Of a stretch of DNA of 48,582 bases, positions 1,955 to 47,306 are shown one piece after another. Under the pieces are notes generated by a model. That model was not told the origin of the DNA and searched no databases. It worked only from the letters and a program-made list of their open reading frames with translations. The translations under genes were made by a program, and so were the position numbers. Position 1 is the first letter of the stretch, and every line of letters begins with the position of its first letter. The DNA is from Cyanobacteria bacterium P01_E01_bin.6 (GTDB taxonomy: Bacteria > Cyanobacteriota > Cyanobacteriia > CAKZMO01), in the NCBI GenBank assembly GCA_039194035.1, contig JBCCWF010000003.1, positions 1-48,582 of the forward strand. Direction: 5' to 3'.

Positions 1955-4900
1955 TCATAAAAGCGTACTTTCCATATCTTCCAGTATTTCTGATGATGGT
2001 TCTGCTGGCTGCACCGCGGTCGCTAATGGTGCGATCGCAAGCTGCTCTAAAATGCGAGTTGCTAATTGGGCAATGGTAGATGTTCCCAGGAACTGCTCGA
2101 TTGGCAGACAAACCTGCAAATCGCTCTCAATTCGATTGCGCAGTTCAAACGCAATTAGCGAATCAATCATCCCTGCCAGGAATTGCTGTGCATTCAATCT
2201 ACTGGTTGGCAACTGGAGTAGATGAGCAATAATTGTTATCAAATACTGTTCTACCAGTGCAGATTGTTCTGTAACAGGCATCTGCAAAATGCGTGATGGA
2301 TCCAGTAGATTGGTTGGCTCACTGTCGAAGTCGCTAGTGGCAGATTGAGCAGATGAGCGAATCGATGGGGAGGCGGCAGGTTGCCATTGTCGCAATTGTA
2401 AGCGGGTTGCTTTGACCAAGCACTTTCCATCGCAATCGAGTAGCATGACATGCGCAGACAAGGTGGCTGTTTGAGATGGATCAGACCAGTCTACGACTTG
2501 GGTGCTAATTTGAGCGTAAGCCCATACGGGTTGATCGTCTCCACTGAAATCATTAATCTGTAATTCCTCCAAGCTCAAAATAACGTAGGCATTGACACAT
2601 TCTTCGGGTAAGCAGGCAGCAAGCAGTTGAAAGCAGGCATCTAGCCCTTGGAGAGGCAATCTATAAGGCTGAGTACCTGACAATTTTGACGGTGACAGTT
2701 GTCCTAACGCTTCACCATCGCGCCGCCAAATAGTGTCTAGAACTTGACAACTCGATCCTAGCTCTGCTCCATGCGCTTGAAGGTGTTGATAGAAGGTTGA
2801 GGCGTTCAAACTATCGGAGCAAAGATGCTGCAAGGCAGCAATATCTAGATGAGCTGACGCCGAAGGCGATGATACCGACTGAAGTTGTCCTGTTGCATGC
2901 AGGATCCACTGGCAGTCCTGGTGAGACTGTTGGATGCTGAAGATTTGAAATTCAGCCTGCTCTGAATCCTGTGGCATCAAGATCAACTGCACGGTGTGAG
3001 ATTGCTCCGATTCAAATGCTAACGGCTGCGGAACGAGCAGCGATTTCCAGTGAGTCATCGGCTGACCAAACGCTGCGATCGCGCCTGCTTGAACCATTTC
3101 CAGATACACGACCAGGTTCACGATCGCGTGACCATGCAGGCGATGGTCGCGCACCAAAGGCAGAGTATTGAGACACCATTGAGCTTCAAATTGGATTGAC
3201 GACAGCGGAGACGCTAAACGCTGACCCAGCAGGGGATGTGACCCCGGATTTGGCAGAGAAGAACGATGGGATGGCAATGCAGGTGCTGATTCAAGCCAGT
3301 AGCGCTGTCGTTCAAAGGGATAGGTCGGTAATGACACGGGCGATCGCGCCTGACCTTGCTCAACGACTTGCCAGTTGATATCCAATCCGCGCACGTAAAG
3401 CTGGCTCAGGCAATGTAAGAGTGGAGTCCAGTCGTCTTGTTCGGGGTCGAGTGAGGATAAACAGAGCCAAGGACGGGTGGGGGCTTCCAACGGAACGGTA
3501 AAGGGATCGCTACCGATCACAACTACTGCATCACAGGACGCGGCTTGCAATGAGGTTATTTGAGTTGGAGAGAGGATTGCTGGCGGATTGGCCGATTGAC
3601 GGGGTGGCATTTCGGCGGAGTGTGCGATCGCTAAAACATCTGGAGATGGAGCAGGCTCTGCTAAAACTTGCTGGATCAGAGCTTCTATACTCAGCGCTCC
3701 AGATAAACAGTTAGCAACATGTTCGCCCACACCATCTCCCAACATGAGAACAGGTTCAATCCCCCACGAACGCCACAGTTGAGCCAGGGCATATTGCCGT
3801 ACAGCATTGAGCAACCGCTGCCACTGAGTAGAGCTATCGTCGAGGGAATGTATTTCCCGCCAAGTCGCCAAGAAAGAGTCGGAGCGGTGACGATCAATTT
3901 CAGTGATGCAATCATTCAGCGTGGCTTGAAAATTTGGTTCGGTATTATATAATTTCTGCCCTAGTGATAGAGACTGGCTAGATTCATGGGGAAAATAGAA
4001 CGCGAGTTTGAGAGGTGTTGGCTGACTATCGCTTGTGGACTCGTTGCCCTGTTGAGGCAGTAATGGCTGCCTTGCCACTCGTGCTTGCAGCAAAGTCTGT
4101 AGATCTGCAAGGGTCGATGGTTGCAGTGCGAGTCGGTGAGAAAAATGCGATCGCCTGACAGTGGTTGTAAAGCAAACATCTGCCAGCTCGACATCCGGAT
4201 GAGCCTGTAAATAGTTCATGAGTTGCTCAACCTGATAGTCCAACGCCGTTGCCGTTTTAGCGGACAAACAGAGAATTTGGGCAGAGCGAGGTTGGGCAGG
4301 TTGACAAGCTAGCTCTGGCGCAGACTCGACAATCAGGTGAGCATTGGTGCCACTAAAACCAAAAGCACTGACTCCAGCAAAATGGGATTGGCCCGAATCC
4401 ACCTGCCAGGGAGTGCGCTGTGTAGGGATGCTGATTTTGGTATCGGTCAAATTGATGTGAGGATTCACCTGATGCAGATGCAAATGAGCTGGAATTTCCT
4501 GATGCTGGATCGCCAGAACGACCTTAATCAGGCTGGCAATGCCTGCGGCAGCTTCCAAATGTCCAATGTTCGTTTTAACCGATCCGAGCATCAATGGGTG
4601 CGATCGCGATTTCACGTTGCCCAGTACAGCATTCAACGCTCCGACCTCGATTGGATCGCCCAATGGGGTACCGGTGCCATGAGTTTCGACGTAGTGAATT
4701 TGCTCTGGTGCAACGTGAGCATTATGGAGTGCAGCCCGAATCACCGCCTGTTGAGCGGTTCCATTTGGCACTGTTAACCCACTACTGCGTCCATCCTGAT
4801 TAACAGCAGAGCCGCGAATGACTGCCAAAATACGATCGCCATCGGCTTGAGCATCGGTTAAACGCTTCAGTGCGATCACGCCGCATCCCTCTCCCCGACC

Positions 4901-5710
4901 ATAGCCATCGGCGGCAGCGTCAAACGTTTTGCAATAGCCATCGGCAGAAAGCGCATTCAGTTTTGCCATTGCAAGAGTCGTTTGCGGGGCAAGCATCAAA
5001 GACACGCCTCCCGCTAGTGCCAGGTTGCACTCCTGCAATCGTAAGCTTTGACACGCTAGATGCACCGCAACCAGGGAGGAAGAACAGGCCGTATCGATCG
5101 CGATCGCAGGACCTTGTAATCCGAGCCAGTAAGCAATTCGTCCGGCTGCAACACTCAGAGCATTCCCTGTAGCCGTGTAAATATCAATAGTCGCGGCATC
5201 CCGAAACAATGCGGACTGCAAATATTCACTCAAACTAATGCCGATAAAGACTCCTGCCTTGCTTCCCATCAGTCGGGAGGTTGGGATTCCGGCTTGTTCT
5301 AAGGCTTCCCAACTTACTTCCAGCAATAAGCGCTGTTGCGGGTCCATGCTGGTGGCTTCTCGTGGACTCAGCCCAAAAAACTCAGCATCAAACTGATCGA
5401 TCGCCTCCAAGAACCCTCCCCGACTTGTTATATCTGGCGTAACGGGATTGAAGCTGTTGTCGCGTTCGACCCGCCCGCATGTGGCTGGAACATCTCGAAT
5501 CGCATCTACACCCTTTTGCAGTAGTTGCCAGAATGCTTCCGGGTTGTCTGCTCCGCCGGGGAAGCGGCATCCCATACCGACGATCGCGATCGCTTCCGTT
5601 TGCGATCGCTCTAATGCGTCAATCCGGCTTCGCATTTCTTTGAGAGCCAGGGCTGCCCGTTGGAGTGGCGATAACGTTTCAAGAGAGTGCTCAGGTAAGT
5701 CAATCATCAT
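1955..5710 (-). CDS. Type I PKS module 3: KS - degenerate AT - DH-like domain - ACP
   Basis: KS motifs DTACSSS, HGTGT and NIGHLE are intact. The AT active site GHSxG reads GDGVG and the domain is shortened. DH-like region HPLLG...HRLHGHAIVN...LDACFQ; ACP IDSL. The probable start at 5710 overlaps the upstream stop (ATGA). Confidence 0.93.
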   Translation of the reverse strand: MMIDLPEHSLETLSPLQRAALALKEMRSRIDALERSQTEAIAIVGMGCRFPGGADNPEAFWQLLQKGVDAIRDVPATCGRVERDNSFNPVTPDITSRGGFLEAIDQFDAEFFGLSPREATSMDPQQRLLLEVSWEALEQAGIPTSRLMGSKAGVFIGISLSEYLQSALFRDAATIDIYTATGNALSVAAGRIAYWLGLQGPAIAIDTACSSSLVAVHLACQSLRLQECNLALAGGVSLMLAPQTTLAMAKLNALSADGYCKTFDAAADGYGRGEGCGVIALKRLTDAQADGDRILAVIRGSAVNQDGRSSGLTVPNGTAQQAVIRAALHNAHVAPEQIHYVETHGTGTPLGDPIEVGALNAVLGNVKSRSHPLMLGSVKTNIGHLEAAAGIASLIKVVLAIQHQEIPAHLHLHQVNPHINLTDTKISIPTQRTPWQVDSGQSHFAGVSAFGFSGTNAHLIVESAPELACQPAQPRSAQILCLSAKTATALDYQVEQLMNYLQAHPDVELADVCFTTTVRRSHFSHRLALQPSTLADLQTLLQARVARQPLLPQQGNESTSDSQPTPLKLAFYFPHESSQSLSLGQKLYNTEPNFQATLNDCITEIDRHRSDSFLATWREIHSLDDSSTQWQRLLNAVRQYALAQLWRSWGIEPVLMLGDGVGEHVANCLSGALSIEALIQQVLAEPAPSPDVLAIAHSAEMPPRQSANPPAILSPTQITSLQAASCDAVVVIGSDPFTVPLEAPTRPWLCLSSLDPEQDDWTPLLHCLSQLYVRGLDINWQVVEQGQARSPVSLPTYPFERQRYWLESAPALPSHRSSLPNPGSHPLLGQRLASPLSSIQFEAQWCLNTLPLVRDHRLHGHAIVNLVVYLEMVQAGAIAAFGQPMTHWKSLLVPQPLAFESEQSHTVQLILMPQDSEQAEFQIFSIQQSHQDCQWILHATGQLQSVSSPSASAHLDIAALQHLCSDSLNASTFYQHLQAHGAELGSSCQVLDTIWRRDGEALGQLSPSKLSGTQPYRLPLQGLDACFQLLAACLPEECVNAYVILSLEELQINDFSGDDQPVWAYAQISTQVVDWSDPSQTATLSAHVMLLDCDGKCLVKATRLQLRQWQPAASPSIRSSAQSATSDFDSEPTNLLDPSRILQMPVTEQSALVEQYLITIIAHLLQLPTSRLNAQQFLAGMIDSLIAFELRNRIESDLQVCLPIEQFLGTSTIAQLATRILEQLAIAPLATAVQPAEPSSEILEDMESTLL

Positions 5711-8700
5711 GTTGCTCCAGTCACCCATGTGGTAAATTCTTGGTCAATTAATGCGGTGAGTTCGGTTTCGGATAAATGCTGAATCGCTTGCCAGGATTGT
5801 TCGGCTGGTTGATCGGTTGTAACGGGTGTTGGGGGAAATAGCTGCGTCAACAGATAGTCTGCTAGTGCCGAGAGCGTTGGACAGTCGAAGGTTAAGGTGG
5901 ATGGGAGCCGCAGATTAAATCGAGTTTGCAAACGGTTTCTCAATTCCAATGACATCAATGAATCTATTCCGAGTTCAAAAAAACCTGTGTGTGGATCGAA
6001 ACCATGACTGCTGTCACGTCCGACAACATTCAATACATCCTGCTGTAAATTTTCAAGAATGCGAGTGCGACGTTGGCTTGGCGAGAGCCTTTCCCATCCA
6101 TCGCGCCAAGATGCGATCGCTTTAGACGTCAAGGTTGGCAATGGCAAGGCACTCAGCAACTGATACCGATCAGGATTAGGAAGCAGGGAGTGAAACTGAG
6201 TCCAGTCGATTGGCAATACACCGACCTGGGCAGGTGTTTGCGATCGCAACTGGCGCAGGATTGAAAACCCTTGGGCAGGCGTTAATAGCTGCACACCTGC
6301 CGTTTGCCAGCGCTGCTTGCCGCGATCGCTTAATGCTGCTGCCATTCCCACCTCTGCCCAGGGACTCCAGTTAATGCTGAGGGCAGGAAGTTCCTGCGAT
6401 CGCCGAGCGTGAGCTAACCCATCCAAAAAGGCATTCGCCGCCGCATAGTTTCCCTGAGCGGGTGACCCCAATAGAGAGGCTGCTGATGAAAATAATACAA
6501 ACTGATCTAAAGGCAGCGATCGCGTGTGAATATGCAAGTTCCAGGCTCCGACAACTTTTGGTAACAATACAGCTTCAAAGCGTTGCCAACTCTGATGCAG
6601 CAATACACCATCATCCAACACACCCGCCAGATGAAACACGCCTTTCAGCGGGGGCGCGGTTTGCTGCAAGGTTGCGATCGCTTGAGCAACTTGATTCGTC
6701 TCAGCCACGTCTGCTTGAACGCAGTAGATTCGGGCTCCCTGATCTTCTAATTGCTTTAAGACCTCAGTTGCTGATTGAGAGGGAACTCTCCGACCCATGA
6801 GCGCTAGATGCTGAACCCCCTGCTCAACCAGCCATTGGGCTAGCTGTAACCCTAGCCCACCAAATGCCCCAGTAATTAAATAGGTTGCATCAGCCTGGTA
6901 GCGAGACAACTCTGCTTGAGTCGTTGTCACTTCAGGTTGCTGTACCGAAGGTTGCTGTGCCGACTGAGAGATTTGCCAAGGCATTAAGCGTGGAACGTAA
7001 CGCTTCCCGGCTCGAATCGCAATTTGATCGTCTGGGTTGACCTGGCTTATCTCTGCTGCGATCGCTGCCACTGTGCTGTCTTCTACAATGGCTGGCACAT
7101 CGATTAAGCCTCCCCACTGTTCGGGATGCTCAAGTGCAATAACACGCCCTAAGCCCCAGAGCAGAGTTTGGAGGGTAGAACTTGGACATTCTTCTGGTTC
7201 AACGGCTTGAGCCGTTTGAGTGACCACCCAGAGACGGTAGGGAGCAGACAGGGAAACATGAGCGATCGCCTGGGCTAAATAAAATAACCCTGCACAGGTT
7301 GTTGGCCCCCGAGACGCTGGTATTGTGAGATACTCGGCAGTGTCTTCATCTAGCCCCCACAGGTAAATTACGCCAGACCAATTGCTTGATTGCAGCAAGG
7401 TTTGAAAAAACTCTGAGCTATTAGAATGATGCACCTGCGCCTGATCCAGGCTGCTACCCAGAGTTGGGGCAGATGAGTTGGCATAGATGACTCGACAGGT
7501 CGCTCCCTGTTCAGTCAGATGGGCAGCCAGTCGATCCCCTAACCCACTGCGGCGATCGCCTAAAATCAACCATTGTTTTGCAAATGAGGCTGAATCATGA
7601 GCAGATCCATGAGTAGAGTGATTGTCAAAGTTATTAACCTGCTCATTAGCGACTTTATTGCTAGATTCAGCGTCAAGCTGCCATTGCAAGGCATACAGAC
7701 AATTTGGCGGAAATTCCACAGTAGAATCCTGCTCGACTGAATGTGGTTTGACTGTGGCAGATTCCAACCAATAGCGCTGACGCTGAAATGGATAGGTCGG
7801 TAGCGACACTCGGCGACGGAAATAATCGCGATCAAACCCCTGCCAATTGATGGATTTGCCCTGTACATAAAGCGCACTTAAACTGGTCAGCAGCACAGAC
7901 CAATCAGATTGACCCCGACGTAGAGAGGGCAACCACAGAACCGCCTGTGACGAACCACACTGCCGCCCTAAACCCAGTAGGACTGGATGGGGACCAATCT
8001 CTAGCAGTTCACGACAGCCCAATTTGATCAGCGTTTGCATCCCGGTCGCAAACTGGATGGGCTGCCGCAAGTGTTCGCACCAATACTCTGCCTGCAATAG
8101 CTGAGTTGCATTTGCAACCGTGCCAGTGACATTCGAGATTACAGGAATCGTCGGCGAACGAAACTGAATGGTTGCGGCGATCGCCCGAAATTCCTCTAGC
8201 ATCGGCTCCATCATCGCCGAGTGGAAGGCGTGAGATACCTGAAGGCAACGGCTTTCGATCCCTCGCTGAGTGAACACTTGCTGCACGGCAGCGATTGCCG
8301 ATTGTTGCCCTGAAATCACGACATTCTGAGGACTATTGATAGCCGCGATCGACACTTGATCACGGATCGGCTCGATTACCGATTGCACCACGGCTAGATC
8401 TGCAAAAACAGCCGCCATTGCTCCTCCACTTGGCAACGCTTGCATCAGGCGTGCCCGTTGTGCCACCAAGAGTAACCCTTCTTCTAGCGTAAAAATGCCC
8501 GCTACACAGGCTGCAACATATTCGCCCAGACTATGCCCCATCACCATATCCGGCTCAATTCCCCAGGAGCGCCAAAGCTGTGCCAACGCATACTCAATCG
8601 CAAATAGAGCGGGTTGCGTATAAGCCGTCTGGTCAAGCAGGGAAGAGGTCCGGGGTAACTTGGATTGATCTCGCTCCTGCGCTGTCTCCACATCTGCTTT

Positions 8701-30028: not shown

Positions 30029-30029
30029 G

Positions 30030-40100: not shown

Positions 40101-41837
40101 ATTTATACCCTCAATCCGCGATCGCCTGAGAATTATGCTGCCTTAATTGCTGCTCTTGTCGCATCCAGTCAAACGCCCCAGATCATCGCTCACCTCTGGA
40201 GTGTCACCAATCGCGATCAAGTCTACGCTTCTCCGCCAGTGTTTGAACAAGCTCAGCATCTAGGCTACTATAGCCTGCTTTACTTAGCACAGGCTTTAGG
40301 GAACCACCATCTCAAACAACCTATACAGATTGGGGCAATCTCTAGCAATATGCAGGAAGTCATCGGTGAGAAGATGATCTGCCCAGAAAAAGCGTCCATT
40401 CTAGGTCCCTGCACAGTGATTCCCCAGGAATATTCTCATATTGCCTGCCGCAGTATTGATATTGCCCTACCTCTGGCAGAGCCTGAAACTGAGCAATTGA
40501 TCGATTTAATCATTGCAGAACTGTTAACCTCCTGCACAGACGCTGTTGTTGCTTATCGTGGTCAGCACCGATGGAGCCAAACGTTTGAGTCCATTCGCTT
40601 AGAAGCGACCCCGCCTGTGAAAACTCGACTGAGATCGGGTGGCGTTTATGTGATTACAGGTGGTTTAGGGGGCGTCGGCTTAGCGGTAGCAACCCATTTA
40701 GCACGTACCGTGAAAGCGAAGTTAGTGTTGCTCAGTCGTTCCGACTTCCCTCACCGTCATCAATGGCAACAGTGGATAGACACTCACGACTCTAGCAATC
40801 AGGTGAGTGACAAAATTCGTCAACTGCAAGCGATCGAAGCACTGGGTGCAGAAGTGCTGATAGTCAATGCCGATGTGACTGATCTAGCCCAGATGCAGGC
40901 AGTTGTGGAGCAAGCCTCTCAGCGGTTTGGTCAAATTCATGGTGTGTTTCATACCGCAGGGATTCCAGGGGGAGGATTAATTCAACTCAAAACTCCAGAA
41001 ACAGTAACCGGAAACTTAGCTCCTAAAGGCATGGGAACCCTGGTGCTGGATGCGGTTTTCAAAGACATTCCCCTGGATTTTCTGGTTCTGTTTTCATCAC
41101 ACGGCTCGTTTCGCAGTGCGTTTGGTCAGGTAGACTATTGTGCTGCCAATGCTTTTCTTGATGCTTTTGCACACTACAAGCGCTTTAACCGAGAAGGGTC
41201 AACCGTCTCTGTTAACTGGGATAGATGGCAAAGTTTGGGAATGGCTGTGGATGTTGAAGCGCGGCATAAAGCGCTGACTGGAGAGGATTTGCCTGCTGGA
41301 ATGAATCCAGAGGAGGGGGTTGAAGCCTTGAGTCGAATTTTGGCAATCAATATCCCTCAAATTGTGGTATCAACCTATGATTTCCTAGAGCGGATTACAC
41401 AGCAAAATGCAGTCAAAACCCAAGCTGATGCAGAGTCTCTAGAAAACGCGAACCTACCGAAGTCACTTCATTCAAGACCCGAATTGAATAACACGTATGT
41501 CGCTCCTCGAGATGCTATTGAACAAGCTGTTACTGAGATTTGGCAAGAGTGCCTTGGCATTGAGCAGATTGGTATTTATGACGATTTCTTTGAATTAGGT
41601 GGAGACTCTTTGTTAGCACTGTCATTAGTTGCATCGCTAAGAAAGTCATTCAAGTTAGACCTGCCTTTGAATGAACTATTCAATGCTTCTAACCCTGCTG
41701 CGCTATCTCAGGTCATCGTTGCGAATGAAGCAAAACCTGGACAAACTGAAAAGATTGCTCAAGTTCTTCACAAAATCAGGGGAATGTCTGACGAGGCAAT
41801 CAAGCAGGCACTTGAGTTAAAGAAAAAAGGTGAATAG
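37188..41837 (+). CDS. PKS: KS-AT(malonyl)-KR-ACP
   Basis: KS QGACATS/HGTGT; AT GQGAQY, GHSIG, HAFH; KR GGLGGVG and DYCAAN without LDD; ACP GGDSL. ATG at 37188 follows an AGGAG RBS. Confidence 0.95.
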   Translation: MNHSEVFSGNEIAVIGISGRFPGAKNLEKFWQNLKDGRSSISFFTDEELKAAGVTPAALDNSNYVKAGSTLEEIELFDASFFNISPREAEIIDPQHRLFLECAWEALEDAGYNPENYSGRIGVYAGVSRSYYFMYNLSKNRNALDSLDPLELVLATEKDYLVTRVSYKLNLKGPGIVVQGACATSLIAIHLACQSLLNGESDINLAGGVTIASERTGYYYQDGGILSPDGHCRVFDAKAQGTIPGNGLGIVVLKRLEDALAEGDSIHAVIKGSAVNNDGSVKVGYTAPSVNGQASVIAEALAVSEVDADTVTYVETHGTGTPLGDPIEIAALTQAFRAYSNRKGYCAVGSLKSNVGHMDSAAGVGSLIKTVLALKHRLIPSSLNFDQPNPNIDFTNSPFYVNTTLTDWETNGMPRRAGVSSFGFGGTNAHAILQEAPIAEESGASRPWQLFVVSAKTNSALETATANLADHFKRHPNLNCADVAYTLQIGRKAFKHRRILVCQNAEDAIQALETPQQRVTSCCQSSGQSLVFMFPGQGAQYVNMAKDLYETEPNFTAQVDQCCSLLTSHLGLDLRSILYPDEAQAEAAQHQLKQTQITQSALFVISYALAKLWMSWGIHPTAMIGHSIGEYVAACLAGVFSLEDALRLVAVRGRMMQEQPSGSMLSVNLPASKVDALLAEGLSLASSNSPSRCVVSGSVEAIEAFRQQLATTGIDARCLQTSHAFHSQSMDSILEPFAEHIKTINLNAPKIPFISNVTGTWIKAEDATDPSYWATHLRQPVLFSEGIQELLKEPDHLLLEVGPGRTLCTLVKQQSHLIAERVVLSSLRHPQEHQSDVAFLLLSLGRLWLAGVNVDWSGFSAQEQRHRVPLPTYPFERQRHWISPDVPDSTHAPTILNKNPDIGDWFYLPSWQRSIPPGSLQPIDLNGDRRCWLVFTDECGIAANLVKRLKLQNQAVVQVMVGETFAQVSADIYTLNPRSPENYAALIAALVASSQTPQIIAHLWSVTNRDQVYASPPVFEQAQHLGYYSLLYLAQALGNHHLKQPIQIGAISSNMQEVIGEKMICPEKASILGPCTVIPQEYSHIACRSIDIALPLAEPETEQLIDLIIAELLTSCTDAVVAYRGQHRWSQTFESIRLEATPPVKTRLRSGGVYVITGGLGGVGLAVATHLARTVKAKLVLLSRSDFPHRHQWQQWIDTHDSSNQVSDKIRQLQAIEALGAEVLIVNADVTDLAQMQAVVEQASQRFGQIHGVFHTAGIPGGGLIQLKTPETVTGNLAPKGMGTLVLDAVFKDIPLDFLVLFSSHGSFRSAFGQVDYCAANAFLDAFAHYKRFNREGSTVSVNWDRWQSLGMAVDVEARHKALTGEDLPAGMNPEEGVEALSRILAINIPQIVVSTYDFLERITQQNAVKTQADAESLENANLPKSLHSRPELNNTYVAPRDAIEQAVTEIWQECLGIEQIGIYDDFFELGGDSLLALSLVASLRKSFKLDLPLNELFNASNPAALSQVIVANEAKPGQTEKIAQVLHKIRGMSDEAIKQALELKKKGE

Positions 41838-42074: not shown

Positions 42075-45000
42075 ATGAGTTTTAAGAATCATGCAACCCA
42101 AGTTGAACATTCCAATGAACAGCAGGAGTTACTGTCTCAGTTATTAAAAGAAGAAGGAGTTGAACTTGAATCAGTGTCTCAACTCCCACCATTAATACCT
42201 GATTTGAATAATCGGTATCAGTCTTTTCCGCTCACTGATATGCAGCAAGCCTACTGGATCGGTAGAGACAGTTTTTATGACATGGGCAATGTGGCGATTC
42301 ACAGCTACACAGAAATTGAAAGCGCTGATTTAGATCTGGAGCGGTTCAAGCTAGCATGGCATCGGCTCATTGAGCGGCATGACATGTTGCGGGCAGTTGT
42401 GTTGCCCGATGGTCAACAGCAGATTTTCAAAGAAATCCCACCCTATGAAATTTCAGTGCAGGATCTGCGAGGGCTTGATCCCAGTACTGTAGAGGCAGAA
42501 CTGATCGGACTACGCGATCGCCTCTCTCATCAGGTGATGTCGCTTGAACAGTGGCCTCAGTTTGAGGTTAGAGCATCTCTATTAGGGACAGGACGCACCA
42601 GACTGCATATTAGTATCGATGGTTGGTGTATCGACGGTTGGAGTTATCAAATTCTATTTCAGGATTTAGCCGAGTTTTATCAAAACCCAACGACTTCCCG
42701 CCCTGACTTTGAAATCTCATTCCGAGATTATGTGATTGCGGAGGTTGCCCGGCAAGAGACTGAAATTTATCAGCGATCGATCGCTTACTGGCGAGATCGA
42801 CTACAGACTCTACCGCCCGCACCAGAGCTGCCTCTGGCTCAAAACCCGGCTTCTCTTACCCAGCCCCACTTTCTCCGTCGATCTGACCGCTTGCAACCAG
42901 AAACCTGGCAGCAGCTAAAAACTAGAGCCTCCAAAGCCGGACTGACTCCGACCGGGGTTTTACTGGCTGCCTATGCTCAAGTGCTATCACTCTGGAGCAG
43001 AAGTCAAAAGTTTACCATCAATGTTCCTCGGTTCAACCGTTTGCCCTTACACGATCAGGTCAACCATTTGGTGGGAGAGTTTGCCTCCTTTACGCTGCTT
43101 GAAGTCGATTATTCTGAACAAGCATCCTTTGAGTCCAGAGCAAAGCGCATTCAGGAACAACTGTGGCAAGACCTGGAACACCAATATGTTAGCGGTGTGC
43201 GAGTACTGCGCGAGCTAACACAGGCTCAGAGACGGGGAGCTGGAACCACAATGCCGATCGTATTCACAAACCTCCCTCAAAACGTAGATGGTCAGAACTC
43301 CTCTCCAGACGTCCATCTCAGGGCAATAGGAGATGTGGTTTACAGCATCGCCCAAACTCCTCAAGTCTGGCTTGATTTTCACTACATTGTGGAAACAGGT
43401 GGTGCGTTACTGTTCAGCTGGGATTCGGTAGAGGAACTGTTTCCCACTGGGATGCTAGACGAAATGTTTGCCACCTACTGCCAACTGCTGAACGCCCTCG
43501 CCACTGAAGAAAGCACCTGGAGTACGCCTCAGCTATGCCTCCTGCCGCCTAACCAGCAGCAGCAACGCGCCACTATCAACGCCACCACTGCTGATATTCC
43601 CCACACCTGCCTCTCCCGCCTGCTTGCCCCGCAATTCCAGCAGCACCCCCACCAACCCGCTGTCATCACCCCCACTCATACCCTCACTTACCAGCACCTC
43701 AACCATCAGGTAGAGCACCTCGCTCACCAGTTGCATACTCTGGGCGTGCGTCCCAACACCCTAGTAGCCGTGGTCATGGACAAAGGCTGGGAGCAGGTCG
43801 TCGCTGTGTTGGGCATTCTCAGATCTGGTGCCGCTTACCTGCCGATTGACCCACAGGTGCCCCCTGAGCGCTTGCACTATCTGCTTGGCAATGCTCAGGT
43901 GCAAGTCGTGCTCACCCAAACCTGGCTCAACCTGAGCTTCCCTAAGTCGTTGATGATCGAGCGACTGTTCCTCGACACGGCGGTCTACCCTAGCGAGAGT
44001 GCCCCACCGTTACCCTGGGTCAACCAACCGGAGGACTTAGCCTATGTCATCTACACCTCCGGTTCGACTGGCAAGCCCAAAGGAGTGATGATTACCCATC
44101 GCAGTGTGGTCAATCTGGTGACTACTACCAATCAGCGCTTTGACATCGGCAGCAGTGACCGAGTGTTGGCACTGACCGCCCTGCATCACGACCTGTCGGT
44201 TTATGACCTCTTTGGTCTCTTAGCCGCCGGAGGCACCCTTGTCATGCCTGCAGCTAGTGGGGTGAAAGACCCGGCTCACTGGTTGGATGTGATGATGCAG
44301 CAGCAGATTACTCTGTGGAACTCGGTGCCTGCCATGATGGAGATGCTGGTCGAACACGTGGCTGACCGTTCGGTTGAGCAATTGGAGCATTTGCGGCTGA
44401 CGATTTTGGGCGGTGACTGGTTGCCAGTGACTTTGCCAGAGCGTCTCCGACGTTTGGCTCCCGCCACTCGAGTTCTCAGTATTGGGGGTCCGACTGAGAC
44501 AACGGTGTGGAACATTAGTTATTTGGTAGAAACTGTTGAGCCCGATTGGCAGAGTATTCCCTACGGCAACCCCATGGCTAATGCCCAGTACTTCATTTTC
44601 AACGAAGTATTAGAGGACTGCCCCACATGGGTAGCGGGGGAGATGTATTGTGCGGGAGCTGGTCTGGCTCAGGGGTACTGGCGAGACCCAGATAAGACGC
44701 AGTCTAAATTTATAGAGCATCCGCGCACTAGGGAGCGACTCTATCGTACAGGTGATCTAGGTCGCTACTTACCTAACGGCAATATTGAGTTTTTAGGGCG
44801 TGTGGACTTTCAACTAAAGTTACGGGGACATCGGATTGAGCCGGGAGAAATTGAAGCTGTACTGCGACAGCATCCAGACATTAAAGAAGCCATTGTGACG
44901 ATGGCAGGCGAAGATGAGAGGCATCAGCAACTGATGGCATATGTTATTGCTAACCAAGACTCATCATCCGATCTATTTGACGTTGAAGAGACCTCTATAA

Positions 45001-47306
45001 ATGATATTACTCGATGTTGGAATGCCTTTGTTTATGCGGGTCAACAACAAGCTCAAAAGGGTCAAGAAGAAGTTGATCTGAAAGCTTTGTCAACGGTTCG
45101 GCAGCACTTAGAAGACTTGAGCGTCGCCTATATGTGTCGTACTTTGACTCGGTTGGGTGTCTATCTTCAGCCTGGAGAGAAGCATTCTTTAGATGATTTG
45201 ATTCATGAGTATAAAATCCAACCGCGCTACCGAAATCTAATTAAACAATGGCTCAGTACCCTTACTAAAGAAGGCTTATTACAGCAGCAAGGAGACGATC
45301 TTACAAATCCCTCTCCTTTATCAGCAACCTCAGTAGATGATATCTGGGAGCGCCTCAAACCCTACGCGAGTATGGATGATGCTACAGAAAAACTGTTTCT
45401 GTATACCCAACGCAGCGGTGATAATCATGTGGCACTGCTAAAGGGTGAGATAGATCCGCTAGAGTTATTTTTCTTCGAGGGGACTACTGAAACGACAGAA
45501 AGTTTGTATCAAAACCATCCTGCTGCAAACTACTTCAACAAAATTGCGGGCGAAGTATTGAGGGCGATAGTCAACAATTGGGATTCAGAAAAACCCTTAC
45601 GGATTTTAGAAATAGGGGCAGGTACAGGCGGGACAACGACTTCGCTACTCCCGGTCTTACCTCCCCATCAGGTTACCTATCTTTACACGGACGTAACCAC
45701 GTTTTTCATCAATAAGGCGCGTGAAAAGTTCAAGGAATACTCTTTTGTCGAATATGGCATCTTAGATATCGATGAAAACCCTCAACGTCAAGGGTATCAG
45801 CTGCATGACTTTGATATCATCATTTCCTCTAATGTGTTGCACGATGCCCACAATCTGTATAAGACATTACCCTACATGCGATCGCTATTAACCCCTAGTG
45901 GGTTGTTCTTAATTATTGAGGCGACTCGATATGATCGCCAGAGCATGACCACGATTGGGTTTATCGAGGGCTTAAGCCATCTCGAAGATATACGGGCAGA
46001 ATCGGAGCTGCCATTTCTATCGTTGGAACAATGGCAGAGAAGCTTAGAGGATAGTGGGTTTGAAAAGTCTGTCTTTTTCCCCGCTATCGATTCTCCCACT
46101 CAGATTTTGGGCGAACATGTGATTGTGGCTCAGGCTCCTGCCACCATACAAAAATTTAATTCCAATCAGTTGCATCATTTCCTACAGGGCATATTGCCTG
46201 AATATATGTTGCCCTCTACCTATATTCCATTGGAGACCTTTCCCCTGACAGCGAACGGTAAAGTAGATCGACAGGCGCTCTCTGCCCTTAAACAAAGCAA
46301 ACTTGACTCAGGCAAACCTTTTGTTGCTCCCCGAAATCCATTAGAGGAGACACTAGCAGAAATTTGGAAGCAGGTCTTAAAGGTTGAACGTGTTGGTATT
46401 TACGATGGTTTCTTTGAGTTGGGAGGTGATTCCTTATTAGGAATTCAGGTAATTTCTAAAGCCAATCAGCAGGAAATTGACTTGAAGCCGCGACAAATTC
46501 TTCAGTATCCCACCATTGCTGAATTAGCTTCACTGGTTGTGAGAGAGAGCACATCTCAATCCGCAAAGCATGATGCTTCTTCTGATTCACTTGTAGCAAT
46601 CAAGCCTAATGGTTCTAAAAAACCCCTGTTCTGCATTCATTCATCGAGTGGAAGTGCTGATTCTTTCATACAACTATCTCGATTGATCGATTCAGAGCAA
46701 CCTTTATATGGATTGCAGTCGAGGGGATTTGATCGTGTATATGGATTGCAGTCAAGGGAATTTGATCGTGAACTCGCGCCCATTCTCACAATTGAAGAAA
46801 TGGCAGCTCATTACATTAAAGCTATTCAGACTATTCAGCCTACAGGACCTTATTACTTATGTGGTTGGTCTATGGGAGGAATTGTTGCTTATGAAATGGC
46901 TCAACAATTGCAAAGGGATAAACAGAAAGTTGGGTTTCTTGCTCTATTAGATATCATGGCGGACAATTGTGAGCAGCAGTTAGCAGCTCTCAGTAGCCAA
47001 ACGAAAACAAATGAATCGATCGCTGAGGTGCTGTCAACCTCTCAAGCAAATGCAGCGTTTAGTGTAAGCCAGGGTAACATCCAAGCCATGCTGAACTACA
47101 CACTACAAATTTATCCAGGCAAAATCACACTGATCAAAGCAACTGAACAACCTTCAGGTATTTCCTCAAACCCCGATTTCGGCTGGCATAAATATGCTCA
47201 GAGCGGCGTAGAAGTTCACGAAGTACCAGGCGATCATTTTTCCATCATGACCACTCCATATGTGAAAGATTTGGCGAAGAGGCTTAACTTTTGTCTAACA
47301 AAGTAA
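42075..47306 (+). CDS. Terminal NRPS 3: Cy - A (interrupted by MT) - PCP - TE
   Basis: Cy FPLTDMQQAY and DGWCID; A core motifs; MT LEIGAGTGG...NVLH inserted late in the A domain; PCP GGDSL; TE GWSMGG...LLD...GDH. Confidence 0.95.
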   Translation: MSFKNHATQVEHSNEQQELLSQLLKEEGVELESVSQLPPLIPDLNNRYQSFPLTDMQQAYWIGRDSFYDMGNVAIHSYTEIESADLDLERFKLAWHRLIERHDMLRAVVLPDGQQQIFKEIPPYEISVQDLRGLDPSTVEAELIGLRDRLSHQVMSLEQWPQFEVRASLLGTGRTRLHISIDGWCIDGWSYQILFQDLAEFYQNPTTSRPDFEISFRDYVIAEVARQETEIYQRSIAYWRDRLQTLPPAPELPLAQNPASLTQPHFLRRSDRLQPETWQQLKTRASKAGLTPTGVLLAAYAQVLSLWSRSQKFTINVPRFNRLPLHDQVNHLVGEFASFTLLEVDYSEQASFESRAKRIQEQLWQDLEHQYVSGVRVLRELTQAQRRGAGTTMPIVFTNLPQNVDGQNSSPDVHLRAIGDVVYSIAQTPQVWLDFHYIVETGGALLFSWDSVEELFPTGMLDEMFATYCQLLNALATEESTWSTPQLCLLPPNQQQQRATINATTADIPHTCLSRLLAPQFQQHPHQPAVITPTHTLTYQHLNHQVEHLAHQLHTLGVRPNTLVAVVMDKGWEQVVAVLGILRSGAAYLPIDPQVPPERLHYLLGNAQVQVVLTQTWLNLSFPKSLMIERLFLDTAVYPSESAPPLPWVNQPEDLAYVIYTSGSTGKPKGVMITHRSVVNLVTTTNQRFDIGSSDRVLALTALHHDLSVYDLFGLLAAGGTLVMPAASGVKDPAHWLDVMMQQQITLWNSVPAMMEMLVEHVADRSVEQLEHLRLTILGGDWLPVTLPERLRRLAPATRVLSIGGPTETTVWNISYLVETVEPDWQSIPYGNPMANAQYFIFNEVLEDCPTWVAGEMYCAGAGLAQGYWRDPDKTQSKFIEHPRTRERLYRTGDLGRYLPNGNIEFLGRVDFQLKLRGHRIEPGEIEAVLRQHPDIKEAIVTMAGEDERHQQLMAYVIANQDSSSDLFDVEETSINDITRCWNAFVYAGQQQAQKGQEEVDLKALSTVRQHLEDLSVAYMCRTLTRLGVYLQPGEKHSLDDLIHEYKIQPRYRNLIKQWLSTLTKEGLLQQQGDDLTNPSPLSATSVDDIWERLKPYASMDDATEKLFLYTQRSGDNHVALLKGEIDPLELFFFEGTTETTESLYQNHPAANYFNKIAGEVLRAIVNNWDSEKPLRILEIGAGTGGTTTSLLPVLPPHQVTYLYTDVTTFFINKAREKFKEYSFVEYGILDIDENPQRQGYQLHDFDIIISSNVLHDAHNLYKTLPYMRSLLTPSGLFLIIEATRYDRQSMTTIGFIEGLSHLEDIRAESELPFLSLEQWQRSLEDSGFEKSVFFPAIDSPTQILGEHVIVAQAPATIQKFNSNQLHHFLQGILPEYMLPSTYIPLETFPLTANGKVDRQALSALKQSKLDSGKPFVAPRNPLEETLAEIWKQVLKVERVGIYDGFFELGGDSLLGIQVISKANQQEIDLKPRQILQYPTIAELASLVVRESTSQSAKHDASSDSLVAIKPNGSKKPLFCIHSSSGSADSFIQLSRLIDSEQPLYGLQSRGFDRVYGLQSREFDRELAPILTIEEMAAHYIKAIQTIQPTGPYYLCGWSMGGIVAYEMAQQLQRDKQKVGFLALLDIMADNCEQQLAALSSQTKTNESIAEVLSTSQANAAFSVSQGNIQAMLNYTLQIYPGKITLIKATEQPSGISSNPDFGWHKYAQSGVEVHEVPGDHFSIMTTPYVKDLAKRLNFCLTK
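46705..46770 (+). repeat. 33-bp in-frame tandem duplication in the TE domain
   Basis: TATATGGATTGCAGTCGAGGGGATTTGATCGTG followed by TATATGGATTGCAGTCAAGGGAATTTGATCGTG (2 mismatches), giving YGLQSRGFDRV-YGLQSREFDRE. Confidence 0.92.

What the first reader, a model, noticed from the sequence alone, without database searches (positions are those of the whole stretch)
1955..47306. Candidate undescribed cyanobacterial pathway for a lipo-aryl tri-azoline with a glycolate extender
Seen: FAAL/ACP, three PKS modules, Cy-A-PCP, PKS with MT, Cy-A(Cys)-PCP plus a free MT, PKS, and Cy-A-MT-PCP-TE, together with a hydroxymalonyl cassette and a P450. No oxidase domain is present, so the rings should stay as azolines. 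Known: azoline-PKS-methylazoline-COOH lines capped by salicylate make yersiniabactin and micacocidin-type metallophores. Inferred: the product is acyl/aryl-azoline-(hydroxylated, methylated C2)-thiazoline-CH(OH)CH2-4-methylazoline-COOH. I do not recognise a characterised cluster that combines strictly alternating Cy-NRPS/PKS modules with hydroxymalonyl supply.
Basis: partly seen in the sequence, partly recalled or inferred. Interest (0 to 1): 0.92.

Follow-up and report, generated by a model that had tools for sequence, protein, structure and literature searches.

The report
Orphan cyanobacterial azoline metallophore gene cluster
A marine cyanobacterial contig carries an intact, uncharacterised assembly line that most likely builds a yersiniabactin-like metal-binding molecule whose aromatic cap is made by polyketide modules from a fatty acid, which makes it a new variant of a known kind, not a new kind.

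Summary
The window is a whole 48.6-kb contig of a marine cyanobacterial MAG. It carries FAAL, ACP, P450 and three PKS proteins on the minus strand. The plus strand has Cy-A-PCP, KS-AT-cMT-KR-ACP, FkbK/J/I/H, Cy-A-PCP, a free C-methyltransferase, KS-AT-KR-ACP and Cy-A-MT-PCP-TE. No oxidase domain was found.

- A JamB-like desaturase between FAAL and ACP is a pseudogene with three lesions.
- The third PKS has only an acyltransferase remnant, and that remnant is conserved in its family.
- A decayed IS6-type transposase lies between the operons.
- The two operons are divergent.

A metagenome contig with the same blocks in one direction (FAAL, PKS1, PKS2, PKS3, Cy-NRPS) shows the two operons are one line. 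The closest relatives of the plus operon are cyanobacterial clusters primed by salicylate that also carry the Fkb cassette, so "Cy-NRPS/PKS plus hydroxymalonyl supply" recurs widely. I found no paper that characterises one.

The none/KR/DH pattern of the three PKS modules follows 6-methylsalicylate logic. The predicted cap is 6-alkylsalicylate, as in micacocidin. A GYSxG acyltransferase variant marks the module that takes the Fkb extender (59 of 61 loci).

Verdict: a new variant of a known kind, of moderate interest. MIBiG could not be queried.

The parts
16274..18034 (-). Fatty acyl-AMP ligase (FAAL), which loads the starter fatty acid
   Evidence: Pfam AMP-binding 241.7 bits plus the DIP2-like C-domain. 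NCBIfam FAAL models score 400-470 bits, below their equivalog cut-offs. 55-58% identical to the FAALs of L120 and G250.
15303..16249 (-). JamB-like membrane fatty-acid desaturase, a pseudogene
   Evidence: Pfam FA_desaturase matches only the N-terminal two thirds. Homologues align in two frames. Lesions: a 5-nt tandem duplication at 15571-15580, an in-frame TAG at 15408-15410 in place of a conserved Trp, and a third His box reading HNNYH where 7 of 7 homologues have HNNHH. Logan's contig of run X1 shows the same letters.
14946..15266 (-). Free-standing acyl carrier protein for the starter
   Evidence: Pfam PP-binding 45.8 bits. 50% identical to the ACP of the G250 FAAL-desaturase-ACP trio.
13680..14909 (-). 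Cytochrome P450, a tailoring enzyme of unknown target
   Evidence: Pfam p450 103 bits. The heme motif FGTGIHYCLG is intact. No NCBIfam model reaches its cut-off.
10598..13687 (-). PKS1: KS-AT-ACP (extension, no reduction)
   Evidence: Pfam. KS Cys/His/His present. AT GHSIG and HAFH. 52% identical to the second gene of L120.
5707..10557 (-). PKS2: KS-AT-KR-ACP (extension, ketoreduction)
   Evidence: Pfam. KR has YAAAN and LDD. 50% identical to the third gene of L120.
1955..5728 (-). PKS3: KS-AT remnant-DH-ACP with a C-terminal docking tail
   Evidence: Pfam finds no Acyl_transf_1. The AT region reads GDGVG and has a large deletion. GDG[IV]G, KS C215/H350/H390 and DH H862/D1030 are invariant in 8 of 8 family members. 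The L120 homologue lies directly before a Cy-A-PCP gene.
18484..19180 (-). IS6/IS240-family transposase remnant between the divergent operons
   Evidence: Pfam DDE_Tnp_IS240 68.9 bits on the 129-aa ORF. Further transposase-like pieces lie in other frames at 18917-19036 and 19037-19180; their likeness is my reading of the translations.
19402..22893 (+). NRPS1: docking domain-Cy-A-PCP, first azoline
   Evidence: Pfam TubC_N, Condensation, AMP-binding and PP-binding. Cy motif DLQIFDAWS. 60-67% identical to the first Cy modules of G401-G405 and L120. Pocket DLYNIGIIWK. The likely start is the invariant Met at 19432.
23001..28871 (+). PKS4: KS-AT(GYSIG)-cMT-KR-ACP, the proposed hydroxymalonyl-ACP module
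   Evidence: Pfam. AT reads GYSIG with a longer N-part, a signature found in 59 of 61 ATs next to an FkbK gene. In the KR, Tyr is kept and the Asn of YxxxN is Ser.
28875..29732 (+). FkbK-like 3-hydroxyacyl-CoA dehydrogenase
   Evidence: Pfam 3HCDH_N and 3HCDH. 74-83% identical in related loci.
29777..30028 (+). FkbJ-like carrier protein for the extender unit
   Evidence: Pfam PP-binding 26.6 bits. 60-75% identical in related loci.
29994..31238 (+). FkbI-like acyl-CoA dehydrogenase
   Evidence: Pfam Acyl-CoA_dh N, M and C domains.
31241..32311 (+). FkbH: loads a glycolytic C3 unit on the carrier protein
   Evidence: NCBIfam TIGR01686 FkbH domain, 278.3 bits against a cut-off of 146.65. 481 tblastn-confirmed relatives in genome contigs, the best 75% identical.
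32327..35764 (+). NRPS2: Cy-A(Cys)-PCP, thiazoline
   Evidence: Pfam. Cy motif DILIGDAWS. Pocket DLYNLSLIWK, with the same nine residues as BmdB (PDB 7ly7) in the printed alignment.
35827..37095 (+). Free-standing PKS/NRPS-type C-methyltransferase
   Evidence: Pfam Methyltransf_12. 49% identical to the MT inside NRPS3 and 34% to the cMT of PKS4. Best PDB match is the CurJ C-MT, 192 bits. SAM motif ILEIGAGVG.
37167..41837 (+). PKS5: KS-AT-KR-ACP (malonyl, beta-hydroxy)
   Evidence: Pfam. AT GHSIG and HAFH with the short N-part. KR YCAAN.
42075..47306 (+). NRPS3: Cy-A-MT-PCP-TE, terminal methyl-azoline and hydrolytic release
   Evidence: Pfam. Cy motif at residue 182. SAM motif and TE GWSMG. 45% identical over the full length to a 1735-aa Lusitaniella coriacea protein of the same build. 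No full-length relative of the same build exceeds 51% over residues 900-1743.

Best explanation
The two divergent operons encode one hybrid PKS-NRPS assembly line.

Proposed steps:
1. The FAAL loads a fatty acid on the free ACP. The neighbouring desaturase is dead, so the chain stays saturated. The P450 may hydroxylate it.
2. Three PKS modules add three malonyl units with no reduction, one ketoreduction, and a dehydratase-type step. This is the pattern that gives 6-methylsalicylate, so the most likely product is a 6-alkylsalicyl thioester on the ACP of PKS3.
3. The acidic tail of PKS3 docks on the N-terminal docking domain of NRPS1, whose Cy domain makes the first azoline.
4. PKS4 adds a hydroxymalonyl unit made on FkbJ by FkbH, FkbK and FkbI, C-methylates it and possibly reduces the ketone.
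5. NRPS2 adds cysteine as a thiazoline, which the free C-methyltransferase may methylate.
6. PKS5 adds CH(OH)CH2.
7. NRPS3 adds a C-methylated azoline, and its thioesterase releases a linear acid.

The product would be a phenolate/azoline/carboxylate chelator of the yersiniabactin, micacocidin and leptochelin type.

Shown by the sequence: the domains, their order, the pseudogene, the conserved blocks and the relatives. Inferred: ring formation, which AT takes the Fkb unit, the amino acids of NRPS1 and NRPS3, the methylation by the free MT, and metal binding.
For: One line, not two clusters:
- Metagenome locus L120 has FAAL, KS-AT-ACP (52%), KS-AT-KR-ACP (50%), KS-partial AT-DH-ACP (45%) and Cy-A-PCP (60%) head to tail on one strand.
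- L130 has ...AT-KR-ACP, KS-AT-DH-ACP and Cy-A-PCP in the same order.
- The minus operon has no TE, and the plus operon has no starter.
- The ACP-plus-tail of PKS3 is 36-43% identical to the C-terminus of the KASIII-ACP protein that precedes the NRPS1 homologue in 5 of 5 relatives.
- A docking model of the PKS3 tail with the NRPS1 N-terminus gave weak support. The score was 0.37 against a best control of 0.00, partner pLDDT at least 68, and at least 85% of contacts shared between runs. The mark was reached by 58 of 80 solved complexes and 2 of 110 mismatches, but at 0.60 or under by only 7 of those 80 solved complexes and by both mismatches that passed.

Aryl cap:
- The reduction pattern is none/KR/DH.
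- KS3 keeps Cys, His and His, and the DH keeps His and Asp, in 8 of 8 family members.
- The L130 homologue has a full AT, so the third module does extend.
- NRPS1 homologues at 61-67% identity follow an AMP ligase, a chorismate-binding enzyme and a KASIII-ACP. This was seen by BLAST in 5 of 5 relatives and confirmed by Pfam in one, G403.

Hydroxymalonyl at PKS4:
- FkbH scores above its curated cut-off.
- The cassette lies directly after PKS4.
- The AT has GYSIG and a longer N-part, as do 59 of the 61 ATs that end within 800 nt upstream of an FkbK gene. Among 33 other ATs in those loci, 19 are GHSxG.
- In 5 of 5 relatives the upstream PKS is GYSIG and the downstream one GHSIG.
- No Methyltransf_3-type O-MT is present.

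Cys at NRPS2: the same nine pocket residues as BmdB.

Metallophore role: relatives are flanked by AMIN-TonB receptors (G401, G404) and by an ABC pair and an MFS gene (G405). The terminal module has the build described for LusV and for the last leptochelin module (PMC12210259 section 7 and PMC11240249 section 7, both read).

Intactness: about 40 kb of megasynthase reading frames are open.
Against: - No product, transcript or culture exists. The genome is a metagenome bin.
- Ring formation is inferred from domain logic only. The DH's best PDB matches are ordinary curacin dehydratases (CurJ 93.5 bits), not a cyclase.
- PKS3 has no working AT, so its ACP must be loaded in trans, and this was not shown.
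- Relatedness of the PKS4 AT to the hydroxymalonyl-specific ZmaA AT is not specific. The control AT of PKS5 also has ZmaA as its top hit (276 against 294 bits).
- All four working ATs read HAFH, which by the classical rule (recalled) means malonyl.
- The loci in the AT count are related to each other, so 59 of 61 overstates independence.
- The KR of PKS4 lacks the Asn of YxxxN.
- The pockets of NRPS1 and NRPS3 (DLYNIGI[IV]W) differ from the Cys pocket at three places and match no code I could find.
- No transporter, regulator or PPTase gene lies in the window.
- The desaturase pseudogene and the IS remnant show some decay.
- The docking score is a weak pass only.
Confidence: 0.6

Rival explanations
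1. The assembly line is the same, but the three PKS modules deliver a linear chain. A beta-keto or enoyl lipid cap passes to NRPS1, giving a lipo-azoline like curacin-type lipids, not a phenolate chelator. In this reading PKS3 is a non-elongating dehydrating module that removes the hydroxyl set by PKS2.
For: - The AT of PKS3 is a remnant, invariant GDG[IV]G in 8 of 8.
- Split KR/DH bimodules are known from trans-AT PKSs (recalled).
- The DH is most like ordinary curacin dehydratases.
- No cyclase or aromatase family was found.
Against: - KS3 keeps the Cys-His-His triad needed for decarboxylative condensation in 8 of 8 members.
- The L130 homologue has a complete AT.
- NRPS1's closest homologues accept salicylate.
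- A 3,7-diketo-4-ene thioester would cyclise readily (chemical reasoning, not tested).
Confidence: 0.25
2. The locus is a decaying, silent cluster. It would be a mosaic put together by an IS-mediated rearrangement that no longer makes a product.
For: - The desaturase has three lesions.
- An IS6-type transposase remnant lies in the shared promoter region.
- The minus operon has 50-55% GC against 41-51% for the plus operon.
- The starter block is inverted relative to L120.
- Dispersed repeats lie on the left flank.
- No PKS3 match at E <= 1e-40 in 3 of 3 same-genus genomes, which are 83-96% complete.
Against: - Eight megasynthase genes, about 40 kb in all, have no frameshift or stop.
- Catalytic motifs are kept in KS, AT, Cy, PCP, MT, TE and P450.
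- The AT remnant is a conserved family trait, not decay.
- A 93%-identical PKS3 exists on another public contig.
Confidence: 0.1
3. The two operons are two unrelated clusters that happen to be neighbours. One would be a FAAL-PKS lipid pathway, and the other an NRPS-PKS line whose salicylate starter genes lie on another contig.
For: - The operons are divergent, differ in GC and are separated by an IS remnant.
- The genome is in 727 contigs, so starter genes could be elsewhere.
- All five fetched relatives of the plus operon use salicylate genes.
Against: - L120 and L130 join the same PKS block to the same type of Cy module on one strand.
- PKS3 ends in an ACP and a tail like those of the relatives' KASIII-ACP proteins and has no TE.
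- The docking model gives a weak pass.
Confidence: 0.05

Closest known systems
Micacocidin (and massiliachelin) pathway of Ralstonia/Massilia
   Same: A FAAL activates a short fatty acid (C6:0 for micacocidin, table of PMC11837247, passages seen). PKS chemistry is proposed to turn it into a 6-alkylsalicylate cap, followed by a yersiniabactin-like thiazoline/PKS/methylthiazoline line (pathway details recalled).
   Different: - Micacocidin uses one iterative FAAL-ACP-KS-AT-KR-ACP module fused to the line (recalled; the review notes the FAAL-PKS fusion). Here there are three separate non-iterative modules, the last with an AT remnant and a DH.
- Here there is an Fkb cassette.
- No thiazolidine-forming reductase gene was seen.
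- No sequence comparison was possible, because no micacocidin sequence was at hand.
Lusichelins (lus cluster, Lusitaniella coriacea LEGE 07167; PMC12210259, section 7 read)
   Same: A cyanobacterial line that alternates Cy(Cys) NRPS and PKS modules and ends in Cy-A-cMT-T-TE. NRPS3 is 45% identical over its full length to a 1735-aa L. coriacea protein of that build. That this protein is LusV is my inference.
   Different: - lus starts from a salicylate synthase and ligase.
- lus has an Ox domain, which gives a thiazole.
- lus has KR-DH and KR-DH-ER modules and four Cys modules.
- The paper's main text has no occurrence of FkbH, hydroxymalonyl, FAAL or P450. Its supplementary gene table could not be seen.
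Leptochelins (lec cluster, Leptothoe spp.; PMC11240249, section 7 read)
   Same: - A marine cyanobacterial metallophore with an aryl cap and a first azoline.
- KS-AT-cMT-KR modules whose alpha carbon ends up bearing both a methyl group and oxygen.
- Cys thiazoline.
- A terminal alpha-methyl-thiazoline carboxylate released by a hydrolytic TE.
- A P450 in the cluster.
   Different: - lec uses an isochorismate/salicylate cassette, Phe and Ala modules and halogenases.
- The paper ascribes the alpha oxygen to P450 epoxidation. Its main text has no occurrence of FkbH or hydroxymalonyl.
Yersiniabactin (HMWP1/HMWP2)
   Same: The logic is phenolate cap, azolines, PKS with C-methylation and ketoreduction, then a terminal C-methylated thiazoline carboxylate (recalled). 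Sources name several relatives of NRPS3 'yersiniabactin nonribosomal peptide synthetase'.
   Different: - Here there is no salicylate synthase and no YbtU/Irp3-type reductase in the window.
- The three Cy modules each have their own A domain.
- Here there is a hydroxymalonyl extender.
JamA-JamB-JamC starter cassette of jamaicamide
   Same: The gene order is FAAL, membrane desaturase, ACP (pathway outline from passages of PMC11837247 seen, which labels the ACP differently).
   Different: The desaturase here is a pseudogene, so no alkyne or alkene is expected. No JamB sequence was compared.
FkbH-FkbI-FkbJ-FkbK route to hydroxymalonyl-ACP (FK520, zwittermicin; in cyanobacteria proposed for aetokthonostatin, PMC10556625)
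   Same: All four functions are present and adjacent. OH-malonyl is drawn as an extender in the aetokthonostatin pathway figure legend.
   Different: - There is no FkbG-type O-methyltransferase.
- The cognate AT carries GYSxG in place of GHSxG.
- The cassette sits inside a Cy-NRPS/PKS line.

Membership tests
Aryl-capped azoline NRPS-PKS metallophores (yersiniabactin / pyochelin / leptochelin / lusichelin type) | Heterocyclisation (Cy) domains in place of ordinary C domains | tested here: met
   DxxxxDxxS is present and HHxxxDG absent in all three NRPS proteins.
Aryl-capped azoline NRPS-PKS metallophores (yersiniabactin / pyochelin / leptochelin / lusichelin type) | Salicylate (or DHB) synthase and aryl-AMP ligase supplying the cap | tested here: not met
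   No Chorismate_bind family scored in any window ORF scanned. Relatives G401-G405 have these genes. The window is a whole contig, so genes elsewhere in the genome are not excluded.
Aryl-capped azoline NRPS-PKS metallophores (yersiniabactin / pyochelin / leptochelin / lusichelin type) | Terminal Cy-A-cMT-PCP-TE module giving a methyl-azoline carboxylate | tested here: met
   Pfam domain order. 45% identical over the full length to a Lusitaniella coriacea protein of the same build.
Aryl-capped azoline NRPS-PKS metallophores (yersiniabactin / pyochelin / leptochelin / lusichelin type) | TonB-dependent receptor, exporters and metal-responsive regulator in the cluster | tested here: inconclusive
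   None is in the window, but the contig ends 1.9 kb and 1.3 kb beyond the core genes. Relatives have AMIN-TonB receptors, an ABC pair and an MFS gene.
Aryl-capped azoline NRPS-PKS metallophores (yersiniabactin / pyochelin / leptochelin / lusichelin type) | The product binds metal ions | not testable with these tools
   Needs the compound.
Micacocidin-type alkylsalicylate priming | A FAAL activates a fatty acid for the PKS | tested here: met
   FAAL-type AMP-binding protein next to an ACP.
Micacocidin-type alkylsalicylate priming | A single iterative KS-AT-KR-ACP module makes the ring | tested here: not met
   There are three separate modules, KS-AT-ACP, KS-AT-KR-ACP and KS-AT remnant-DH-ACP.
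Micacocidin-type alkylsalicylate priming | The product is a 6-alkylsalicyl thioester | not testable with these tools
   Inferred from the reduction pattern only.
JamABC-type alkyne/alkene starter cassette | Gene order FAAL, membrane desaturase, ACP | tested here: met
   16274-18034, 15303-16249 and 14946-15266, all on the minus strand.
JamABC-type alkyne/alkene starter cassette | Intact desaturase with three His boxes | tested here: not met
   Frameshift, in-frame stop, and a third box reading HNNYH against HNNHH in 7 of 7 homologues. No second copy at E <= 1e-20 in the genome, which is 90.7% complete.
FkbH/I/J/K hydroxymalonyl-ACP cassette | FkbH-domain protein | tested here: met
   TIGR01686, 278.3 bits against a cut-off of 146.65.
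FkbH/I/J/K hydroxymalonyl-ACP cassette | Dedicated ACP, 3-hydroxyacyl-CoA dehydrogenase type and acyl-CoA dehydrogenase type enzymes adjacent | tested here: met
   Pfam PP-binding, 3HCDH_N/3HCDH and Acyl-CoA_dh N/M/C at 28875-31238. The order K-J-I-H is kept in relatives.
FkbH/I/J/K hydroxymalonyl-ACP cassette | FkbG-type O-methyltransferase (would give methoxymalonyl) | tested here: not met
   The only free MT is a CurJ-like C-MT. The expected extender is therefore hydroxymalonyl.
FkbH/I/J/K hydroxymalonyl-ACP cassette | An AT that takes the ACP-bound extender | tested here: inconclusive
   The GYSxG signature goes with the cassette in 59 of 61 loci, but the ZmaA likeness is shared by the control AT. 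No assay was done.

The most novel reading that the evidence does not exclude
The FAAL plus three-protein PKS block (KS-AT-ACP, KS-AT-KR-ACP, KS-AT remnant-DH-ACP) is a modular, non-iterative 6-alkylsalicylate synthase. Its last module, with an invariantly dead AT, takes malonate in trans, and its DH-fold domain sets up ring closure. This would be an undescribed way to make the aryl cap of a siderophore, swapped in for the salicylate-synthase cassette of a widespread cyanobacterial metallophore family. In addition, the GYSxG acyltransferases would define a cyanobacterial clade specific for hydroxymalonyl-ACP.
Probability: 0.4. Interest if true: 0.65.

Novelty: new variant of a known kind. Interest (0 to 1): 0.5.

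Why it matters
- Few cyanobacterial metallophores are known. Leptochelins, lusichelins and fatuamide all appeared in 2024-2025.
- This locus links that salicylate-capped family to a second way of making the cap, from a fatty acid by PKS modules.
- It also shows that a large, uncharacterised branch of the family carries a hydroxymalonyl cassette.
- The GYSxG signature gives a simple sequence mark for predicting which module takes the glycolate unit in hundreds of cyanobacterial clusters.
- The conserved KS-AT remnant-DH-ACP family is a testable case of ring formation on a modular PKS.
- None of this changes what kinds of systems are known. It refines structure prediction and points to cultured strains in which the chemistry could be found.

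Tried and rejected
- **ZmaA likeness of the PKS4 AT.** The top PDB hit of the PKS4 AT is ZmaA (276 bits). I rejected it as evidence for hydroxymalonyl use, because the control AT of PKS5 also has ZmaA on top (294 bits).
- **Metagenome scans.** A single-protein scan for the AT remnant-DH-ACP part found 93 pattern matches but no relative. The alignment-based scan used generic KS patterns, so most of its 80 loci are unrelated PKSs. Only L120 and L130 were informative.
- **Identity with published clusters.** I rejected leptochelin, lusichelin and fatuamide as the same cluster. All three start from salicylate synthase genes, and their main texts hold no FAAL, FkbH or hydroxymalonyl.
- **Literature searches.**
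  - FkbH with cyanobacteria and thiazoline gave 1 paper, a review.
  - Hydroxymalonyl with cyanobacteria and heterocyclization gave 1 unrelated paper.
  - Hydroxymalonyl with cyanobacteria gave 11 papers, and only the aetokthonostatin paper was relevant.
  - Micacocidin with cyanobacteria gave 9 papers, and none describes such a cluster by listing.
  - The pocket strings of NRPS1 and NRPS3 gave 0 papers.
- **Substrate of NRPS1 and NRPS3.** The best PDB match is the Gly module of LgrA (596 bits). The alpha-methylserine enzyme FmoA3 (6lta) has a different pocket in the printed alignment. Neither settles it.
- **RNA.** No RNA holder was listed among the public runs, so expression could not be looked at.
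- **Neighbouring SDR.** I considered the SDR at 47714-48463 as a thiazoline reductase. It is a FabG-type SDR, and its homologue in G404 lies far from the cluster, so I left it out.
- **Earlier notes of this scan.** They hold no finding on this contig.

Full report
**What is there.** The window is the whole of contig C3 of a 6.76-Mb, 727-contig genome with 47.8% GC. The only public run that holds the stretch is a marine metagenome, so the genome is a metagenome bin.

- The minus strand, read from 18034 down to 1955, carries a FAAL, a fatty-acid desaturase, an ACP, a P450, KS-AT-ACP (PKS1), KS-AT-KR-ACP (PKS2) and KS-?-DH-ACP (PKS3).
- The plus strand, 19402-47306, carries dock-Cy-A-PCP (NRPS1), KS-AT-cMT-KR-ACP (PKS4), FkbK-, FkbJ-, FkbI- and FkbH-like genes, Cy-A-PCP (NRPS2), a free methyltransferase, KS-AT-KR-ACP (PKS5) and Cy-A-MT-PCP-TE (NRPS3).
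- FkbH scores 278 bits against a curated cut-off of 146.65.
- All three condensation-type domains have the Cy motif.
- All five KS domains keep Cys, His and His.
- No oxidase family was found.

1. The desaturase between FAAL and ACP is broken. Homologues align to it in two frames. The shift is a 5-nt tandem duplication at 15571-15580. A TAG at 15408-15410 replaces a Trp conserved in 7 of 7 homologues. The third His box reads HNNYH where 7 of 7 homologues have HNNHH. Logan's contig of the same run shows identical letters at about 9x word depth, which is not independent of the assembly's reads. No other copy scores E <= 1e-20 in the genome. The FAAL-desaturase-ACP trio is a portable unit.
2. The AT of PKS3 is a remnant, with GDGVG in place of GHSxG and a large deletion. 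This is not decay. Seven database relatives (93% to 55% identical over the whole protein) share it, with GDG[IV]G invariant. All also keep the KS triad, the DH His and Asp, an N-terminal coiled-coil and an acidic C-terminal tail.
3. An IS6/IS240-type transposase, split over at least three frames, lies at 18484-19180 between the two operons.
4. The left flank holds dispersed repeats that end many contigs of this genome.

**One line or two.** Metagenome locus L120 carries the same blocks head to tail on one strand. These are FAAL, KS-AT-ACP (52%), KS-AT-KR-ACP (50%), KS-partial AT-DH-ACP (45%), Cy-A-PCP (60%), then KS-AT-KR-ACP and a further NRPS. L130 shows ...AT-KR-ACP, KS-AT-DH-ACP (here with a complete AT) and Cy-A-PCP. 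The hand-off from PKS3 to a Cy module is therefore a conserved arrangement. In the window the starter block appears inverted, with the IS remnant at the junction. The link to the IS is an inference. A model of the PKS3 ACP-tail with the NRPS1 docking domain passed weakly, as follows.

- The score was 0.37 against a best control of 0.00.
- Partner pLDDT was at least 68, and the runs shared at least 85% of contacts.
- The mark was reached by 58 of 80 solved complexes and 2 of 110 mismatched pairs.
- At 0.60 or under, only 7 of those 80 solved complexes and both passing mismatches reached it.
- My own alignments were used.

**Relatives of the plus operon.** FkbH has 481 tblastn-confirmed relatives in the genome collection, and all named records among the best 80 are cyanobacteria. 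The best is 75% identical. In 9 of those 80 loci an NRPS1 homologue at 52-66% identity lies nearby. I fetched five contigs more widely: an uncultured Microcoleus MAG, a Cyanobacteria bacterium MAG, Desmonostoc geniculatum, [Phormidium] sp. LEGE 05292 and a Nodularia MAG. All five show this order:

1. An AMP ligase of about 520 aa.
2. A protein of about 450 aa.
3. A protein of 519-558 aa whose C-terminus resembles the ACP-tail of PKS3.
4. An NRPS1 homologue (61-67%).
5. A PKS with or without cMT.
6. FkbK-J-I-H.
7. An NRPS2 homologue, then further modules.

In G403, Pfam names the three starter proteins AMP-binding, chorismate-binding and KASIII-ACP. These are salicylate-primed clusters like those of fatuamide, lusichelin and leptochelin (sections 7 of PMC11877528, PMC12210259 and PMC11240249, all read). 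AMIN-TonB receptors (G401, G404) and an ABC pair with an MFS gene (G405) flank them. The window's plus operon therefore belongs to a recurrent, apparently uncharacterised Fkb-bearing branch of the cyanobacterial aryl-azoline metallophore family. Its salicylate starter has been replaced by the FAAL-PKS block.

**The cap.** The three modules reduce nothing, then reduce one keto group, then offer only a DH. With three malonyl units on an acyl starter, this is the sequence of events accepted for 6-methylsalicylate (established chemistry, recalled). Closure of C2 on C7 would give a 6-alkylsalicyl thioester, the cap of micacocidin. Four observations support this:

- The downstream Cy module's nearest homologues take salicylate.
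- KS3 looks able to condense.
- The L130 homologue has a full AT.
- The carrier-tail is homologous to that of the salicylate carrier.

Three points count against it. The DH looks like an ordinary curacin DH in PDB (CurJ 93.5 bits). Nobody has shown trans-loading of the PKS3 ACP. Nothing was measured. I put the aryl cap at about 0.55 and a linear cap at about 0.25.

**The glycolate unit.** All four working ATs read HAFH, so the classical motif does not single one out. PKS4, which directly precedes the cassette, has GYSIG and a spacing of 122 residues between two AT motifs, where PKS5 has 91. The same holds in 5 of 5 relatives, while their downstream PKS and the PKS of L120 and L130 read GHSIG. 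The count over the 80 FkbH loci is as follows.

- 73 of the 80 loci had an FkbK ORF.
- 61 of those had a PKS AT ending within 800 nt upstream. 59 of these are GY-type and 2 are GH-type.
- 12 had no such AT in the DNA held.
- Of 33 other ATs in those loci, 19 are GH-type and 14 GY-type.

These loci are related to each other, so the count is not a statistical test. Likeness to the hydroxymalonyl-specific ZmaA AT is not informative, because the PKS5 control shows it too. There is no FkbG-type O-MT, so the unit should stay a free hydroxyl. With the cMT, the alpha carbon would bear both OH and CH3. The KR of PKS4 keeps Tyr but has Ser for the Asn of YxxxN, as does its G403 orthologue, so reduction there is uncertain.

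**Amino acids and methylation.** I read the pocket residues at positions recalled from the GrsA numbering.

- NRPS2 has DLYNLSLIWK, the same nine residues as BmdB of bacillamide synthesis in the printed PDB alignment. That BmdB loads Cys is recalled.
- NRPS1 has DLYNIGIIWK and NRPS3 has DLYNIGIVW. This variant recurs in the first Cy modules of G402, G404, L120 and L130. G401 and G405 have the Cys pocket.
- The variant goes with DLQ[IV]FDAWS in the Cy motif (window, G402, G404 and L120). The Cys pocket goes with DLL[IV]FDAWS (G401 and G405).
- No paper holds these pocket strings. Cys, Ser and Thr all remain open, so "tri-azoline" stands but the ring heteroatoms of rings 1 and 3 do not.
- The free MT is 49% identical to the MT inside NRPS3, and its best PDB match is the CurJ C-MT. 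In G402 and G405 the NRPS2 homologue has an MT built in. The free MT is therefore most likely a trans-acting C-methyltransferase for the NRPS2 thiazoline. This is an inference.

**Distribution and novelty.**

- No match to the AT remnant-DH-ACP part at E <= 1e-40 was found in 3 of 3 same-genus genomes (83-96% complete). Only generic matches at 33-40% identity were found in 7 of the 57 other relatives.
- None of 400 other sampled cyanobacterial genomes scored E <= 1e-90, though only two candidates per genome were scored.
- A 93%-identical PKS3 exists on one other public contig.
- For NRPS3, apart from the window's own protein, no full-length relative of the same build exceeds 51% identity over residues 900-1743.
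- Hydroxymalonyl use in a cyanobacterial line has been proposed for aetokthonostatin (figure legend of PMC10556625).
- I found no paper describing a FAAL-trimodular PKS-Cy block or an Fkb-bearing azoline metallophore cluster. I could not query MIBiG, and supplementary gene tables were closed.

**Verdict.** This is a real, largely intact orphan cluster. It works like micacocidin and yersiniabactin and is related to the leptochelin/lusichelin family. It differs in how the cap is made and in the glycolate extender, so it is a new variant of a known kind. Interest is moderate (0.5). The two results that reach beyond this locus are the conserved KS-AT remnant-DH-ACP family placed before salicylate-type Cy modules, and the GYSxG mark of Fkb-coupled acyltransferases.

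Noticed in passing
window 1348-1624 (also 54-554 and 775-942): Dispersed repeats. Pieces of about 50-250 nt match at least 19 other contigs of the genome at 82-93% identity, often at contig ends. They may belong to the hairpin repeat family noted earlier in this genome.
   Followed up: partly
window 18484-19180 (-): A decayed IS6/IS240-family transposase lies in the 1.4-kb gap between the divergent operons. The starter block is inverted relative to the colinear relative L120, which suggests an IS-mediated inversion.
   Followed up: partly
L001-L080 (FkbH loci of many cyanobacteria): ATs next to the FkbKJIH cassette carry GYSxG in place of GHSxG, plus an insertion of about 25-30 aa (59 of 61). 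14 further GY-type ATs elsewhere in these loci suggest clusters that use several glycolate units.
   Followed up: yes
window 1-18034 against 19402-48582: The minus operon runs at 50-55% GC and the plus operon at 41-51%, against a genome mean of 47.8%. This is consistent with the two halves having different origins.
   Followed up: no
G250:C166:113084-116564: An intact FAAL-desaturase-ACP trio (58/53/50% identical) lies next to genes with no likeness to the window's PKSs, so the cassette moves between pathways.
   Followed up: partly
G104:C4:564641-568335, G240:C40:1512-5052 and G378:C120:46848-52071: Tandem arrays of three or four paralogous JamB-like desaturase genes occur in three other cyanobacterial genomes.
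   Followed up: no
window 36970-37095 and 35680-35764: The free MT and NRPS2 both end in very basic Arg/Lys-rich tails, as does NRPS1. PKS1, PKS3 and PKS4 end in acidic tails. These are possibly matched docking elements.
   Followed up: no
window 47714-48463 (+): A FabG-type SDR lies at the right contig end. Its link to the cluster is unclear. A 51%-identical gene in G404 lies about 26 kb from that cluster.
   Followed up: partly
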